DNA of 64,000 bases from Carcharhinus longimanus (lineage: Eukaryota), in the NCBI GenBank assembly GCA_030264375.1, contig JASCQW010000190.1, forward strand, positions 35,696,279 through 35,760,278. The letters are read 5' to 3'. Position 1 is the stretch's first letter; the number at the start of each line of letters is the position of its first letter. Made by a program: the position numbers. This document shows, piece after piece, positions 30,001 through 39,000 of the stretch.

Positions 30001-33000
30001 TAGGTGGATTGGCCATGCTAAATTGCCTTAGTGTAGGTTAGGAGGATTTGCGATGTTAATAAATGGGTTATGGGACTAGGGCCTTGGTAGGGACCAAGTT
30101 GGCTGGGAAAGGCAAGTGGCATAACACTTCCAGGTGTCAAGCCCCATACCATGACTTTCCCAGCGTTCTCCTGTACAGCATTCCTCAGGTCAACACACCT
30201 TGCAGCTTCACACCTTCCTCTCACTGCAGACATCTCACATCCCCATCTGAACACTATAACTCACACTCACTCTTATCATGTTGCCCTCTCCACTTTGCAG
30301 AGAAGGGAGCATACAATTTCAGGAAAAATAGATGGGATGAGGACGGGGTGGAGGTTGCCCTCCAATGAAAAGTATCTTGAAAGCCAATGGCAAAGCTTAT
30401 GGAGCTTGGCCCCTGAAAATGTTATAGCACTCACTTTGATTTGATTTGATTTGGGTTATTATTGTCATACGTATTTACATACAGTGAAAAGTATTGTTTC
30501 TTGCAAGCTATAGAAATAAAACATACTGTTCATAGAGAAGAAAATGAGACAGTGCAGAATGTAGTGTTACAGTCATAGCTAGGATGTTGAGAAAGATCAA
30601 CTTAATGCAAGGCAAGTCCATTCAAAAGTCTGACAGCAGCAGGGAAGGAGCTGTTCTTGAGTCGGTTGGTAAGTGACCTCAGACTTTTGTATCTTTTTCC
30701 TGAAGGAAGAAGGTGGAAGGGAGAATGTCGGGGGTGCGTGGGATCCTTAATTATGCTGGCTACTTTGCCGAGGCAGTGGGAAGTGTAGACAGAGTCAATG
30801 GATGGGAGGCTGGTTTGCGTGATGGATTGGGCTACATTCACAAACATTTGTAGTTCCTTATGGTCTTGGGACAAAGCAGAAGCCACGCCAAGCTGTGATA
30901 CTATCAGAAAGAATGCTTTAGGAAAGGCATGAGAAACAGTTCAGAGAGATTTACTAGATTAATTCCAGGAATGCCTGGGTTGTCTTTTGAGGAAAGGTTG
31001 GACAGGTTAGGCTTATACCAACTGGAGTTTAGAAGAGTAAGGGATGACTTGATTGAAACCTTTAAGATCCTGAGGGGTCTTGACAGGGTGGAAAAGATGT
31101 TTTCTCTTGCAGGAGAATCTAGAATGAGGCGTCATGATTTAAAATAAGGGGTTTCTCATTTAAGACAGAGATGAGGAGAAATCTTTCCTCTCAGAAGGTC
31201 ATGAATCTTTGGAACACTTGTCCTCAAAAGGCAGTGGAAGCAAGACTTTGAATATTTTTAATAGAGGTGGATAGATTCTTGATTAACAAAGGGGTGAAAG
31301 GTTATTTGGGGTAGGCAAGAATGTGGATTGGAGGTTGTAATCAGATTAGCCATGATCTTATTGAATGGTGGAGTAGGTTCAAGGGGCTGAGGGTCTTACT
31401 ACTGCTCCTACTTTGCATGTCTGTATGTAACTTCAGAGTTTTTGTAATGGTCAGAGGAAATTCCGCTAAACATCTTTGTAAAGTTATTGAACATGTCCTA
31501 AGCCCAACTAGCAAGGGGTTTAATTGATATGTGGTTGAGGGAAAGGAGGTGCATGGAAGAGAAAGGGAAGAAGTATTTATTCATGTTACTACAGCCATTG
31601 TGCTGATACCAGGATAGCTTGGAGAACTGGTCCTTTCCTACCCATTACATTGGTTTGATTGTAATTAAATTCCAACTCACAGTAAGGCACAATTAAGCCA
31701 CAGTGTGATTCAGGGAGTGTGAACATCTTCTAGTGCGATGCTAAGGGACATGGAAAGGATAGTTAAAAAAGCAAATCAGATTTTTTAGACTATCTTGGAA
31801 AGTTGTACAATCCAAAATGTGAGAGTCAGCATTATAAATATTGCAGCTGTCAACTTTGGGGGCGACCCAGTGGCACAGTGGTTAATGCTGCTGCCTCACA
31901 GTGCCAGGGACCTGGGTTCGACTCCTGGCTTGGGTCACTGTCTGTGTGGTGTTTGCACATTCTCCCCATGTCTTCATGGGTTTCCTCTGGGTGCTGTAGT
32001 TTTCTCTCACAGTCCAAAGATTTGCAGGTTAGGTGAATTGGCCATACTAAATTCTCCCGCAATGTAGCTGATCAGGCGCTGGAGTATGGTGACTAGGGGA
32101 TTTTCACAGCAACTTCATTGCAGTGGAAATGTAAGCTGATTTGTGACTGATAAATTAGCTTTGTTTTTTGTGTAGTGGTACGTCGGAACAAGAAAGGCCC
32201 TGGCCTATGATTAGCTACACTCACTTTAAGATTGCTGGTTTTTGGCATGAACTAATGTTCATTCTCTTGGGTAATCATATCTCTTGCTTTAATCAGTTTG
32301 ATTACCAATACACCTTACACAACACTTGCAAAGTTACAGCAATTGGCTCCTTGTCACTCATCATTAATTTAGAAGATGTAAGGAATATTGGAATCTGTTG
32401 TTTATCAAATATGGAATGATATGGGTTGTCAGACTGAGTCTAGGTGATAAAAGTAACATTGGCTATTAGAAACAAGGCATGCCTTTAGGAGTGCGACACC
32501 AAAAACCTGATTATTAAAGAAGCAGAATATTTTTATTCTTAATATTCCAATCTTTCTCAGCCAAACTGCACCAAGTAGACCAGCCCTGAACACTGAAAGA
32601 TGAAAGCATGTAAATATGTAAAATTCATAATTATTGCCAGCTTTTAAAATATGTGAAGAACATTATAAAGTCACCAAAGCCCAAAGGACCTCCTTTGAGG
32701 GAGAGAGCTGTCAGATGATGATTTAACATGAGGATCACCACATCTGAGGTAAAGGGCAAGGTTGAACCTTCATGAGCAACTTCAGCCGGGAATTGAACCC
32801 ATGCTGTTGACATTGCTCTAAATCACTAACCAACTTTCTAGCCAATTGAGCTAAACTGATCAATGAAAATGATCAAATTACTGTTGTTTTACAATCAAAC
32901 TGGTATCATGGAATCATAGAATCCTACAGTGCAGAAAGAGGGCATTCAGCCCATTGTGTCTGCACTGACGACAATCCCACACAGGTCCTATCCCCATAAT

Positions 33001-36000: not shown

Positions 36001-39000
36001 TTATAACGCTGACTCTGTTGCATTTTGGATTGAATAGCTCTCCAAGATACTCTAAAAATCTGACTTGCATTCCAAAAAAATCTTTTCCATGTCCCTCAGC
36101 ACCGCACTAGAAGATGTTCACAGTCCCTGAATCACACTATGGCTTAATTGTGTCTTACTGTGAGTTGGAATTTAATTACGATCAAACCAATGTAATGGAT
36201 AGGAAAGGACCAGTTTTCCAATCAAGACACCACTATGGCTGGAGTATGATGAATAAAACTTGACAGAATAAGACATCACCTTTGCCTGTAATCTCCCTTT
36301 ACTGTACAGGGCCCATGTGTTGCACTGTGTGATGTTTTTAAGATTGCCTCACAGCCTCAAATGTATGCATCTTAAAGGGAATGCTGCTTGTCCCTTTTTT
36401 TTGCTGTAAAAAATCTATGATTCTTTAAAAGATATGGGAGTGACAGTCTACGAATTGCTCTTAAAGAGCACTGGTGCTGACATGATGGACCAAATGGCCT
36501 CCTTCTGTGCTGTTACCATTCTACGTTTTTTTCCTCCACCACATATTGCCAATTGTTCTGTGGCAACATACTCAAACAGCTTTGAGAAAATTTTGTTTGT
36601 AACCGTTCATTTTCAGTGCCAGAGAGGTTGATTGGCAATAGTTCACAGGTATCACATTGTTAAACATGTACTCAGTCTAGAACGGATAACACTCAACTCT
36701 CTGTGGCAGGTTTAGTTCATGAATTCATTCTCCACAACTGTAGCAACTTCATGCTGTTCAATGCATTTCAATGACGGGCCATGCAGTGAGATCCATTTCC
36801 AAGATGCTAATGGCAGAATGGTACAGCTTGGATAGCAACTTTCTAAATATTTGAATTTACCCACACATTTGGCCATTGCCTGAAGTTGCTGTGCCATTGA
36901 CAAATAGTTAATGGTGAGCTCCATTAGCTTCACTGTTATTTTGACAGAAAATATGGGCCATTATTAAAAGAACACTGTCATCCTATTCACAATATTAGCT
37001 GAGTTGAATTTATAATACAAAGTAGTGGTAACTGAAAACATAACTGTTATTTGAATATTTCAACCCACGATTACAGGGAATGTTGAATAGAAAACAAACA
37101 CATAAAGGACTCCGTGATGTGTACAGTCAGTGTACCATTGAGTTCTGCACGGATATGCATTCCTCATCTCCAGTATTTATACAATTAATATTTTTATGAT
37201 GCAGCATACCAAGCTTGCTCTCATATTTCAAGCATTGGTGCTGCTTCAAATTTTGTACCCATTGCTGGTCTAACAGCAGTTTCTTTCTTCTCTACATTAT
37301 TTTAATTTTTTTCCATTCTCTTGCTTCTGAAGGAAAAAAGCTCGACATTCAAGTTGTTCTGTTAAAATGAGAACTGTGTCTCTTTTTCCCAGATATAATA
37401 CTGGGGCATCAAGAAGGAAGCTAGTGATGTTTGCTGTTTCTGTAAATGGTCCTTCAGCCCAGCTTCATTCATCCGTGCATAAAGTGTCTAAAGTTGACAG
37501 TGTGGAAATTGGCTTGAATTGGATCCAACTTTCAATGAAGAACTTATTCTGTGCTGGGGGAGCACTGCATGCCCAAATTGGTTAGGCTGCCCTGGAGCTG
37601 TCCAGCACAATTACCTGAAACCAGTGCTGGACACATTCGGTGTGCAAATTCAGGGCTAAGTGTCATTTTTAGACTCCATTTCTATGTTGGATTGCAATTG
37701 AAAGCTAATAGCCGTCCGAGCATTGTAATCTGACAGTGTTCGGAGAGCAGCCGCAGCTGACAGCAAAGGCTCCATCGTGAAGGGATCCTACTGTTGGGTT
37801 CATGGAGTCAGCTGCTTTAGTTCAGGTTAGACAGAATGGCCTAACTGCCCTGGTCTTACTCCTCTTCCTGCTGTGCACCATTTTGTCCTGTAGACAGAGA
37901 GGGAATTGATGAGTATTTCAAAGGAGAAGGAGAGTGTAGATGTGTGGGACTTGAACTGTTTGTGCAGATGCTGAGAGGAGAAAGAAGCTGTAGGCAACCT
38001 GCAGGGAAAAATGACAAATTATTGATAATTGCGTGGAGTGTGAAGTGAGGAAAGGTCCATGAGAGAAGTTGGTTATTGTGTAAAGGCTAGCAAATGAAAG
38101 GAGAATGCTGCTACTGGCGGCTGTGAGAGGAGTAAAGAAAAGGAGGACTTTTTTCCCCTTACACTGACCTCTTCTAGTGGGATCTTCGGAAGGGGTGGAG
38201 GCAGGTGGGGGGGTGGGGGGGGGGGAGCTCAGAGATCCCCCAAGGGCATGTCTGTTACACATGATGACTCTATTTCTTTCTGCATCACTCCCACCCTATA
38301 TTTTAGAGGAGGGAATGCCACCTTACAGTAAGAAATGCATGCCACTTTAAACAGACTGACTGCCAGCAATTGTACTGCAGCTATAGTTCAGTGCAAAATG
38401 GGAAAACTGCTAAGGAGATTAGAATGAGGGAGGGAGATAATATTTCCTGGGTCTGCATCCATCTGTAGCATATGTGATTTGAATTGTCAGAAGGACTTGA
38501 TTTTCAACCTCACTGGGGTCGGGATCAGGAGCAAGCAGGGTGGCACAGTGTTTAGCACTCCTGCCTCACAGTGCCAGGGACCTGGGTTCAATTCTGGCTT
38601 TGGGTGACTGTGTGGAGAACATTTTTCCCGTGTCTGTATGGGTTTCCTCCGGCTGCTCCAGTTTCCTCCCACAGTCTAAAAATCCATGGGTTAGGTGGAT
38701 TGGCCATGTTAAATTTGCCCTTAGTGTCCCAAGCTGTGTAGGTTAAATGGATTAGCCATGGCTGAGTCTTCATGAACAACCTCAGGCTCAGTGACATCAA
38801 TGCTTCCTAACACCCTTATTGGTATGTGGCTATTATGCGAAACTAGGTATTTTTAGAAGATTATTTATTAGCCACAACTAGGCTTATGTTAACATTGCAA
38901 TGAAGTTACTGTGAAAACCTCTAGTTGCCACACTCTGGCGCCTGTTCTGACACAGCAAGGGAGAACTTAGCATGGTCAATGCACCTTAACCAGCATGTCT

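What the first reader, a model, noticed from the sequence alone, without database searches (positions are those of the whole stretch)
31572..36261. About 1-kb inverted duplication of mostly unique sequence around a 2.4-kb spacer
Seen: 35240-36261 is the colinear reverse complement of 31572-32862 once the SINE at 31859-32158 is removed. About 800 bp of each arm matches none of the TE families recognised here. Inference: if transcribed (for example inside an intron), it would form a very long dsRNA stem looping out 32863-35239. That would be a substrate for ADAR editing, endo-siRNA production, or splicing and circRNA control. At DNA level it could be an inversion hotspot or a duplicated enhancer pair.
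[Added by the scan's program, not by the reader: the finding's places include an assembly gap (unread letters, written N; its length is only estimated) at 33105 to 33114. Whether the letters on both sides are continuous or in frame is not known: test that first.]
Basis: partly seen in the sequence, partly recalled or inferred. Interest (0 to 1): 0.8.

Follow-up and report, generated by a model that had tools for sequence, protein, structure and literature searches.

The report
Old local inverted duplication, unevenly decayed
A 1-kb piece of non-coding DNA was copied long ago in reverse orientation about 2 kb from the original; most of it has drifted apart, but two short patches have stayed nearly identical, and this is an ordinary kind of genome rearrangement with no sign of a function.

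Summary
Window 31571-31858 plus 32164-32885 is the colinear reverse complement of 35217-36261 (906 matches, 129 mismatches, about 26 indels). A SINE with a 5-bp target duplication sits in the left arm only. The 10-N gap lies inside one SINE copy in the spacer, and its two sides are colinear halves of that copy, so the join is supported. No other copy of the arm was found in the 64 kb. Neither the whole structure nor either arm has a target-site duplication, and 13 ORFs from spacer and arms match no Pfam family. Both arms share the same junction between two other repeats. The best reading is an old locus-level inverted duplication, not a transposon or an assembly artefact. Identity is very uneven: two islands (142 bp at 6.3% divergence, 235 bp at 3.0%) sit in a background of about 17%. 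Arm-to-arm gene conversion is the likeliest cause, and selection on both copies is the main rival. A transcript would pair the arms (about 890 inter-arm pairs, helices up to 60-80 bp). Nothing shows transcription, and substitutions show no strand-specific RNA-stem signature. Genome-wide copy number and cross-species conservation could not be checked.

The parts
31571..31858 (+). Left arm, outer block (288 bp). Pairs with 36261-35980.
31619..31760 (+). Island 1, left copy. 142 bp with 9 mismatches (6.3%) and no indel against 36221-36080.
   Evidence: local hairpin z -2.06/-1.72
31859..32158 (+). SINE-A copy inserted in the left arm only. Its head is called tRNA-Cys-like. The 5-bp target duplication CTTTG lies at 31854-31858 and 32159-32163.
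32164..32885 (+). Left arm, inner block (722 bp). Pairs with 35979-35217.
32197..32432 (+). Island 2, left copy. 235 aligned columns with 7 mismatches (3.0%) and one 1-bp indel against 35944-35710. Perfect runs of 60, 59, 47 and 31 bp.
   Evidence: no intrinsic fold (z +0.30/+0.39)
32665..32862 (-). SINE-like piece ('SINE-B') at the inner end of the left arm. It has A-box-like and B-box-like motifs when read on the - strand.
   Evidence: My reading, plus weak nhmmer hits to SINE-A heads. Not called by ARAGORN or Rfam.
32864..32885 (-). Last ~22 bp of the arm homology. It is derived from a third repeat ('famC') and is shared with 35217-35238.
32886..35216 (.). Spacer (2,331 bp). It has no inverted self-similarity and no Pfam match in 10 ORFs.
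32904..33219 (-). SINE-A copy in the spacer. It contains the N run 33105-33114, and its two halves are colinear.
34645..35021 (-). Second SINE-A copy in the spacer. It has the same orientation as the first, so it is not part of the mirror.
35081..35238 (+). famC repeat fragment. It runs without a break across the inner boundary of the right arm and matches 16164-16318.
35217..36261 (-). Right arm (1,045 bp). It carries the empty site for the SINE and is probably the parental copy.
35240..35465 (+). SINE-like piece ('SINE-B') at the inner end of the right arm.
   Evidence: My reading. Not called by ARAGORN or Rfam.
35710..35944 (-). Island 2, right copy.
36080..36221 (-). Island 1, right copy.

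Best explanation
This is an old, locus-level inverted duplication: a small palindrome with a spacer. It lies in non-coding DNA.

Origin. A 1.0-kb composite segment was copied in reverse orientation. The segment consisted of about 22 bp of one repeat, a SINE-like element and about 790 bp of otherwise unmatched sequence. The copy landed about 2 kb from the original. The right arm looks parental, because the repeat fragment at its inner edge continues unbroken into the spacer. The left arm looks like the copy. The likeliest origin is a replication or repair error with template switching of the fold-back type. That step is inferred, not shown.

Later history. A SINE inserted into the left arm, and most of the arms decayed neutrally to about 17% mismatch plus indels. 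Two patches (142 bp and 235 bp) stayed at 6% and 3% divergence. The likeliest reason is repeated arm-to-arm gene conversion that went on in the best-matching cores while the edges eroded. This too is inferred.

Function. Nothing indicates a function. The arms would pair into a long imperfect duplex in any transcript that spans them, and at the DNA level they could support inversion of the spacer.
For: Structure:
- The arms are colinear and inverted, with sharp outer ends.

Not an artefact:
- Identity is 87.5-88.8%, with 26-27 indel-separated blocks.
- There is an arm-specific SINE with its target duplication and an empty site in the other arm.
- The two sides of the gap are colinear halves of one SINE copy.

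Not a transposon:
- blastn at 1e-5 and an nhmmer --max profile search found no further copy of the arm in 64 kb. SINE-A, by contrast, has about 21 segments there.
- No direct repeat longer than 4-5 bp, and none at the junctions, flanks the whole structure or either arm. The SINE used as positive control shows its 5-bp repeat exactly at its junctions.
- No poly-A or microsatellite tail is present.
- 10 spacer ORFs and 3 arm ORFs gave 0 Pfam families, apart from one hit at E=0.23.
- Both arms carry the same junction between the famC fragment and the SINE-like piece. At fixed register, 13 of the last 15 bases match.
- The famC fragment continues past the boundary only on the right (Smith-Waterman score 41 against a null maximum of 16). 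It has no counterpart on the left (score 17 against a null maximum of 17).

Internal clock:
- The inserted SINE is 8.5% (21/246) to 9.7% (26/267) from window-derived consensuses at non-CpG sites.
- This predicts at least about 17-19% divergence between neutrally evolving arms. The background segments show 16.5-17.5%.

Uneven identity:
- The islands are at 6.3% (9/142) and 3.0% (7/235).
- The lowest mismatch count in any 235-column window is 6. The lowest value in 20,000 permutations was 14, so 0 of 20,000 reached the observed value.
- Island edges are abrupt. Island 2 begins 33 bp from the SINE heterology.
- The transition:transversion ratio in the conserved parts (39:8) does not differ from the SINE benchmark of 2.96 (p=0.24). 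This fits young neutral differences.

Precedent:
- Arm-to-arm conversion in palindromes (PMC8327919 abstract; PMC3723533 and PMC8981503, search listings only).
- Fold-back inverted duplications with spacers of 766-70,466 bp, median 3,428 bp (PMC3907307, passages read).
Against: - No chondrichthyan or other vertebrate genome could be searched. The genome-wide copy number of the ~790-bp part is unknown, so a low- or mid-copy transposon is not excluded.
- With two sequences and no outgroup, gene conversion and purifying selection on both copies give the same pattern.
- Conversion between arms whose surroundings are only about 83% identical is expected to be strongly suppressed (established knowledge, recalled). 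The model therefore needs continuous homogenisation of the cores.
- Island 2 is not centred in its homology block, so a simple edge effect does not fully describe the profile.
- No microhomology is evident at either junction of the left arm, so the proposed origin has no direct trace.
- The two arms lie on different contigs joined at the N run. The join is supported only by colinearity of a repeat copy.
- The 'SINE-B' and famC labels rest on motifs I read, on one in-window match and on recall. ARAGORN and Rfam did not call a tRNA-like head there.
Confidence: 0.55

Rival explanations
1. The duplication is real, but the two islands are functional non-coding elements kept by purifying selection in both copies. 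An example would be a pair of enhancers, or other conserved non-coding elements, duplicated head to head.
For: - The islands are 3-6 times less diverged than the background at non-CpG sites (2.6% and 5.8% against 17-22%).
- Neither island has an indel apart from a single 1-bp one.
- Their edges are abrupt.
- The later SINE landed in the divergent stretch between them.
- Island 2 has no stable RNA fold of its own (z +0.30 and +0.39), which fits a DNA-level element better than a structured RNA.
Against: - Both copies would have to stay functional for the whole age of the duplication.
- No gene, CpG island or known RNA lies in the 64 kb to give a regulatory context.
- The same pattern follows from gene conversion.
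- Cross-species conservation is untested.
Confidence: 0.15
2. The arms are copies of a low- or mid-copy mobile element. They are either two independent insertions in opposite orientation or the long terminal inverted repeats of one 4.4-kb non-autonomous transposon or foldback element. A conserved central domain shared by subfamilies could explain the uneven identity, as described for SINEs with highly conserved domains (PMC5499810, introduction read).
For: - Other two-copy matches of 260-450 bp in the window show that low-copy repeats exist here.
- The inner part of the arm is repeat-derived.
- Genome-wide copy number could not be measured.
Against: - There is no target-site duplication around the whole structure or around either arm.
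- There is no tail, and the termini are not of a recognised type.
- The spacer and arms show no transposase or reverse-transcriptase remnant.
- Even a profile search found no third copy in 64 kb.
- The arms share a junction between two unrelated repeats, and the homology ends inside one of them.
- The SINE nested in the left arm is old, 8.5-9.7% from consensus. The arms therefore cannot both be the young insertions that a 3% core would require.
Confidence: 0.12
3. The locus is a functional hairpin-RNA gene or intronic element. Its stem, above all the near-perfect 235-bp core, would be kept complementary by selection for siRNA production, ADAR binding or control of splicing and back-splicing.
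For: - The predicted fold pairs the arms over about 890 bp, with perfect helices of 47-80 bp.
- High arm identity in a core is what selection on a stem would give.
Against: - Transitions in the conserved parts split 19 to 20 between the two possible transcribed strands, and 31 to 37 over all segments. There is thus no excess of G:U-tolerated changes.
- No sign of a transcript, exon or known RNA family was found.
- 10 spacer ORFs matched no Pfam family, so no protein-coding exon that could be circularised was recognised in the spacer.
- The rest of the stem has been allowed to decay.
Confidence: 0.05
4. The arrangement is a scaffolding error. The two arms lie on different contigs (1427-33104 and 33115-40688) that were wrongly joined or wrongly oriented at the N run. 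The true arrangement would then be direct, or not adjacent at all.
For: - The gap lies between the arms and inside a high-copy SINE, which is where assemblies typically break and where false joins occur.
Against: - The two sides are same-strand, same-order halves of one SINE copy in all 14 paired comparisons. The implied missing length is 17-18 bases in 9 of them, close to the 10 N written.
- The arms themselves are real, diverged paralogues whatever their spacing.
Confidence: 0.05

Closest known systems
Sex-chromosome and autosomal palindromes (inverted segmental duplications with a spacer) maintained by arm-to-arm gene conversion, e.g. primate X and Y palindromes (PMC8327919 abstract; PMC3723533 and PMC8981503, search listings only)
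   Same: Two arms in inverted orientation around a unique spacer. Arm identity is higher than the age of the duplication predicts, at least in patches. The spacer is a site of later insertions.
   Different: Those palindromes are 10 kb to over 1 Mb long, over 99% identical along the whole arm, and carry genes. This one is 1 kb, 87-89% identical overall with only 142-bp and 235-bp near-identical cores, and has no gene.
Actively maintained long inverted repeats of Caenorhabditis (Zhao et al. 2007, PMC1803023, abstract read)
   Same: The inverted-repeat structure appears better kept than neutral decay would allow, which implies a homogenising mechanism.
   Different: Those repeats involve homologous gene pairs and whole intergenic regions, and their maintenance was shown by comparison of three species. 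Here there is no gene and no second species.
Fold-back inverted duplications with a normal-copy spacer (Hermetz et al. 2014, PMC3907307, passages read)
   Same: An inverted copy is separated from the original by a spacer of a few kb. Reported spacers are 766-70,466 bp with a median of 3,428 bp, and this one is 2,331 bp.
   Different: Those duplications are megabase-scale and terminal, and they show 2-8 bp of inverted microhomology at the junction. This one is 1 kb and interstitial, so it needs a second switch back, and after about 9% decay per lineage no microhomology can be read.
Inverted SINE pairs in introns as substrates of ADAR editing and as promoters of back-splicing (recalled general knowledge; no paper on this was read)
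   Same: Nearby inverted repeats that would form an imperfect duplex in a pre-mRNA.
   Different: The arms here are 3-4 times longer than a SINE and two-copy in the window. Transcription is unknown.

Membership tests
Inverted segmental duplication / palindrome with spacer | Two colinear arms in reverse-complement orientation | tested here: met
   31571-32885 (minus the SINE) against 36261-35217; 906 matches and 129 mismatches
Inverted segmental duplication / palindrome with spacer | Arms are locus-specific sequence, not copies of a dispersed repeat | tested here: inconclusive
   No third copy in 64 kb, and both arms share a nested-repeat junction. The source genome could not be searched.
Inverted segmental duplication / palindrome with spacer | A spacer that is not itself mirrored | tested here: met
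   the unique part of the spacer against its own reverse complement scored 17, against a null mean of 14.4 and maximum of 21. The two spacer SINE copies have the same orientation.
Inverted segmental duplication / palindrome with spacer | Concerted evolution of the arms (gene conversion) | tested here: inconclusive
   Islands at 3.0% and 6.3% in a background of about 17%, with 0 of 20,000 permutations reaching the observed value. No outgroup was available to separate conversion from selection.
DNA transposon with long terminal inverted repeats / foldback element | Target-site duplication flanking the whole element | tested here: not met
   the longest shared words are 4 bp and do not abut the junctions
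DNA transposon with long terminal inverted repeats / foldback element | Transposase gene or remnant between the repeats, or further copies of a non-autonomous form | tested here: not met
   10 spacer ORFs gave 0 Pfam families apart from one hit at E=0.23. No further copy in the window. Genome-wide copies were not testable.
Two independent retroposon, SINE or solo-LTR insertions | Each copy has its own target-site duplication and a tail or TG..CA ends | tested here: not met
   (left arm 4 bp, right arm 5 bp, neither at the junctions). No A-rich or microsatellite tail and no TG..CA ends.
Two independent retroposon, SINE or solo-LTR insertions | Homology ends at the ends of the element | tested here: not met
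   The homology runs about 22 bp into a different repeat (famC), which continues only beside the right arm.
Hairpin-RNA / endo-siRNA locus or ADAR-edited long hairpin | Inverted repeat able to form a long duplex | tested here: met
   891 and 899 inter-arm pairs; helices up to 80 and 60 bp
Hairpin-RNA / endo-siRNA locus or ADAR-edited long hairpin | Transcription through both arms; small RNAs or A-to-I clusters | not testable with these tools
   No expression data. Rfam gave 0 hits at E<=0.1 in the window.
Hairpin-RNA / endo-siRNA locus or ADAR-edited long hairpin | Predicted signature rather than a definition: excess of G:U-compatible transitions on one strand | tested here: not met
   19 against 20 in the conserved parts (p=1.0); 31 against 37 overall (p=0.54)
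Assembly artefact (false inverted duplication) | Arms essentially identical, with no arm-specific events | tested here: not met
   87.5-88.8% identity, many indels, and an arm-specific SINE with a target duplication
Duplicated conserved non-coding elements | Divergence well below neutral flanks | tested here: met
Duplicated conserved non-coding elements | Conservation in other species | not testable with these tools

The most novel reading that the evidence does not exclude
The two near-identical islands, above all the 235-bp core at 32197-32432 / 35710-35944, are functional elements that selection has kept in both arms of an ancient head-to-head duplication. They would be either a mirrored pair of regulatory elements or the core of a long hairpin RNA. 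This would be a small palindrome in a cartilaginous fish preserved for what it does, not by conversion alone.
Probability: 0.15. Interest if true: 0.6.

Novelty: new member of a known kind. Interest (0 to 1): 0.27.

Why it matters
As it stands, this is one more small inverted low-copy repeat in a repeat-rich vertebrate genome. It is useful mainly as a clean worked example. Its history can be ordered from the sequence alone: nested repeats came first, then the duplication, then a SINE insertion with an empty site in the other arm. The inserted SINE also gives an internal clock, which shows that most of the arms decayed neutrally while two patches did not.

If the patches turn out to be conserved across species, the locus would be a rare case of a mirrored pair of non-coding elements retained together. 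If the arms instead evolve in concert, it would show gene conversion persisting in cores of about 150-250 bp long after the rest of a 1-kb repeat has diverged.

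Tried and rejected
- **Homology beyond the arms.** Outer flanks 30900-31570 against 36262-36950 scored 15 (null maximum 18). The spacer's left end against its right end scored 17 (null maximum 17). Nothing beyond the stated ends.
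- **famC inside the arms.** The part of the 16164-16318 repeat copy that continues past 16318 has no match in either arm (scores 10 and 11, null means 11.3 and 11.4). The ~790-bp part is therefore not that repeat.
- **Protein content.** 50 stop-free ORFs were sent to Pfam: the 40 longest N-free ORFs in the window, 10 spacer ORFs minus overlaps as listed, and 3 arm ORFs. They gave 0 families apart from a ParE-like hit at E=0.23, which I take as chance. I then sent only its stop-free ORFs.
- **Island 2 as a coding exon.** A 1-bp indel at 32330 / 35811 changes the frame between the arms.
- **RNA families.** Rfam on 30000-38000 at E<=1 gave one hit, DLG2-AS1_2 (E=0.19), which lies inside a multi-copy repeat and is taken as chance. 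The whole window at E<=0.1 gave 0 hits.
- **tRNA-like head of 'SINE-B'.** Short scans of the inner arm ends at E<=10 gave only weak unrelated hits and no tRNA model. ARAGORN found one tRNA-like site in the window, the head of the SINE in the left arm. The tRNA-derived nature of 'SINE-B' therefore remains my reading.
- **Intrinsic RNA structure of the islands.** Island 2 has none. Island 1 is marginal (z -2.06 and -1.72), with 0 of 37 pairs showing a compensatory change between the arms.
- **Not used or not open.** I did not use structure prediction, complex prediction or the protein atlas, because no credible protein is present.
- **Spliced model.** I built none, so no joined-exon step arose.
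- **Taxon.** I do not take the contig for human. Its SINE families look like those of cartilaginous fishes from recall, but no tool here could confirm the taxon.

Full report
**1. The observation**

- The repeat finder on 30000-38000 listed 11 inverted pairs. Seven are colinear blocks of one structure, 40-184 nt long and 78-94% complementary. The other four are SINE copies.
- blastn of 30500-37500 against the window gave 31571-31858 against 36261-35980 (83.8% over 291 columns) and 32159-32885 against 35984-35217 (81.8% over 771 columns).
- With the SINE taken out, a local alignment has 906 matches, 129 mismatches (87.5%), 81 transitions, 48 transversions and 26 gaps.
- A global alignment of exactly 31571-32885 against 36261-35217 has 877 matches in 988 aligned columns.
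- The outer ends are sharp.
- In the whole window only 5 ungapped inverted matches of 100 nt or more lie within 6 kb of each other. Four belong to this structure.

**2. The gap**

The window has eight N runs. The one at 33105-33114 lies in the spacer, inside a SINE copy (32904-33219). I searched the left and right sides separately against the window and paired the hits.
- In all 14 pairs the two sides lie on the same strand and in the same order as in the other copies.
- The implied missing length is 17-18 bases in 9 of the 14 pairs.
- I took only strand, order and length from this comparison, no letters.

The join and its orientation are therefore supported. They are not proven, because contigs tend to end in repeats and the two arms do lie on different contigs.

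**3. Anatomy**

- The SINE at 31859-32158 ('SINE-A') has about 21 segments in the window. ARAGORN calls its head tRNA-Cys-like.
- It is flanked by the 5-bp direct repeat CTTTG, and the right arm carries the unoccupied site. It therefore inserted after the duplication.
- The two SINE-A copies in the spacer (32904-33219 and 34645-35021) have the same orientation as each other, so they are not part of the mirror.
- The inner 200-225 bp of each arm (32665-32862 and 35240-35465) reads as a second SINE-like element, with A-box-like and B-box-like motifs. This is my reading, helped by recall of shark repeats. ARAGORN and Rfam do not call it, even at E<=10 on short stretches. The only tool support is a set of weak nhmmer hits to SINE-A heads (E 0.014-0.47).
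- Just inside that element, the last ~22 bp of arm homology belongs to a third repeat ('famC'). Its fragment 35081-35238 matches 16164-16318 (Smith-Waterman score 41, null maximum 16) and runs unbroken across the inner boundary of the right arm.
- The left arm has those 22 bp (13 of the last 15 bases match at fixed register) but not the 135 bp before them (score 17, null maximum 17).
- The copy at 16164 continues past 16318, and that continuation has no match in the arms.

Each arm is thus a composite: a 22-bp stub of one repeat, a SINE-like element and about 790 bp with no other match in the window. The right arm looks like the original in its native context.

**4. Transposon or duplication?**

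Evidence against a transposon:
- No third copy turned up in 64 kb, by blastn at 1e-5 or with a profile of the two arms run with nhmmer --max at E<=10.
- No target-site duplication flanks the whole structure, the left arm or the right arm. The longest shared words are 4-5 bp and do not abut the junctions, whereas the control SINE shows its repeat exactly at its junctions.
- There is no tail and no recognisable termini.
- 10 spacer ORFs and 3 arm ORFs gave no Pfam family, apart from a chance-level hit at E=0.23.
- The homology ends inside another repeat, and both arms share the junction between two unrelated repeats.

Evidence for a transposon:
- Other two-copy repeats exist in the window.

I put the transposon reading at about 0.12.

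**5. Artefact?**

A false inverted duplication would be near-identical. These arms differ at 11-13% of aligned sites. They carry many indels, including 18-bp and 14-bp ones, and an arm-specific SINE. Only the adjacency and orientation depend on the gap join (section 2).

**6.

Divergence by segment:

| Segment | Mismatches | Divergence |
|---|---|---|
| Island 1, 31619-31760 | 9/142 | 6.3% |
| Island 2, 32197-32432 | 7/235 | 3.0% (perfect runs of 60, 59, 47, 31 bp) |
| Shoulder, 32433-32664 | 31/231 | 13.4% |
| Remaining three segments | | 16.5-17.5% (cheap-gap alignment); 22-25% (MAFFT) |

- The lowest mismatch count in any 235-column window is 6. In 20,000 permutations of mismatch positions the lowest value was 14, so none reached the observed value.
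- An internal clock agrees with the background being neutral. The SINE that inserted after the duplication is 8.5% (21/246) to 9.7% (26/267) from consensuses built from 13 and 7 window copies at non-CpG sites. This predicts at least about 17-19% between the arms. The consensus comes from few, decayed copies, so the figure is rough.
- The transition:transversion ratio is 39:8 in the conserved parts and 29:35 in the divergent parts (Fisher p=6.6e-5). The SINE benchmark is 2.96, and the conserved parts do not differ from it (p=0.24). The excess of transversions in the divergent parts probably reflects small misalignments around indels.

**7. What keeps the islands alike?**

*Gene conversion between the arms* is my preferred reading.
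- It is the known behaviour of inverted repeats with short spacers (PMC8327919 and PMC1803023, abstracts read; PMC3723533 and PMC8981503, seen only in the search listing).
- The islands have tract-like lengths and abrupt edges.
- Island 2 stops 33 bp from the 300-bp heterology made by the SINE, and the differences within the islands have a neutral spectrum.
- Its weakness is that recombination between sequences only about 83% identical is strongly suppressed (recalled knowledge). The cores must therefore have been homogenised continuously while the edges eroded.

*Purifying selection on both copies* gives the same picture and cannot be separated without another species.

*Selection on an RNA stem* predicts an excess of transitions that leave G:U pairs on the transcribed strand.
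- The split is 19 to 20 in the conserved parts and 31 to 37 overall.
- Island 2 has no fold of its own (z +0.30 and +0.39).
- Island 1 folds marginally better than shuffles (z -2.06 and -1.72), with no compensatory change between the arms (0 of 37 pairs).

**8.

If one transcript spans 31571-36261, the minimum-energy fold pairs the arms. There are 891 inter-arm pairs on the + strand and 899 on the - strand, with uninterrupted helices up to 80 and 60 bp. The conditional statement therefore holds.

Nothing shows that the locus is transcribed or lies in an intron.
- No CpG island was seen.
- The 40 longest N-free ORFs of the window matched no Pfam family.
- Rfam gave no hit at E<=0.1 in 64 kb.
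- None of the 10 spacer ORFs matched a Pfam family, so no protein-coding exon that a back-splice could use was recognised there.

**9. Origin**

The arrangement is an inverted copy, a spacer of a few kb, and the original. It resembles fold-back inverted duplications, whose spacers are 766-70,466 bp with a median of 3,428 bp and whose junctions show 2-8 bp of inverted microhomology (PMC3907307, passages read). Here the copy is only 1 kb and interstitial, so a second switch back to the original template is needed, that is, a template-switching replication or repair event. At about 9% decay per lineage no microhomology can be read at 31570|31571 or 32885|32886. This step is inference only.

**10. 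Verdict**

The structure is best read as an old local inverted segmental duplication, a new member of a known kind. Two patches have most likely been homogenised by gene conversion, and there is no evidence of function. Interest is modest. The open point worth a follow-up is whether the islands are conserved across species.

Left unchecked:
- genome-wide copy number;
- orthologous loci in other species;
- expression data;
- long-read support.

Supplementary files of the papers were closed, and none bears on a claim made here.

Noticed in passing
window 4217-4550 and 5006-5327: A second, smaller inverted pair: 76% identity over 340 bp with a 455-bp spacer. It lies in the most GC-rich kilobase of the window (GC 0.58).
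   Followed up: no
window, about 21 segments, e.g. 7084-7371, 11023-11336, 54530-54851, 58505-58813: One SINE family occurs about once per 3 kb. It has two subtypes that share the first ~195 bp and differ in the 3' part. Copies are 8-14% from a window consensus at non-CpG sites.
   Followed up: partly
window 9463-9906, 30435-30885, 43376-43829, 12157-12304, 63734-63872: A 4-5-copy repeat of up to 450 bp. The only Rfam hit near the finding (DLG2-AS1_2, E=0.19, at 30682-30941) lies inside it and is taken as chance.
   Followed up: partly
window 30899-31144 (+): An 82-aa open frame reads like the C-terminal end of a CR1/L2-type LINE ORF2. This is my reading from recall, and Pfam gave no family.
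   Followed up: partly
window 31610-31770 and 36070-36230: Island 1 folds as a ~140-nt imperfect local hairpin in both arms (z -2.06 and -1.72; 7 and 10 of 200 shuffles fold as well). No compensatory change occurs between the arms.
   Followed up: partly
window 32894-32901 and 35206-35213: The same 8-bp word, in direct orientation, lies just inside the spacer next to both inner breakpoints. It could be chance or a trace of the rearrangement.
   Followed up: no
window 16164 to about 16650: A longer copy of the famC repeat whose fragment abuts the right arm. It appears to end in a reversed tRNA-like part, which is my reading only.
   Followed up: partly
window 1327-1426, 40689-40788, 46131-46315, 56528-56537, 60469-60478, 61082-61091, 62424-62523: Seven further N runs of 10, 100 or 185 bases. 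The window is thus a scaffold of nine contigs, and the contig that carries the right arm is only 7.6 kb long (33115-40688).
   Followed up: no
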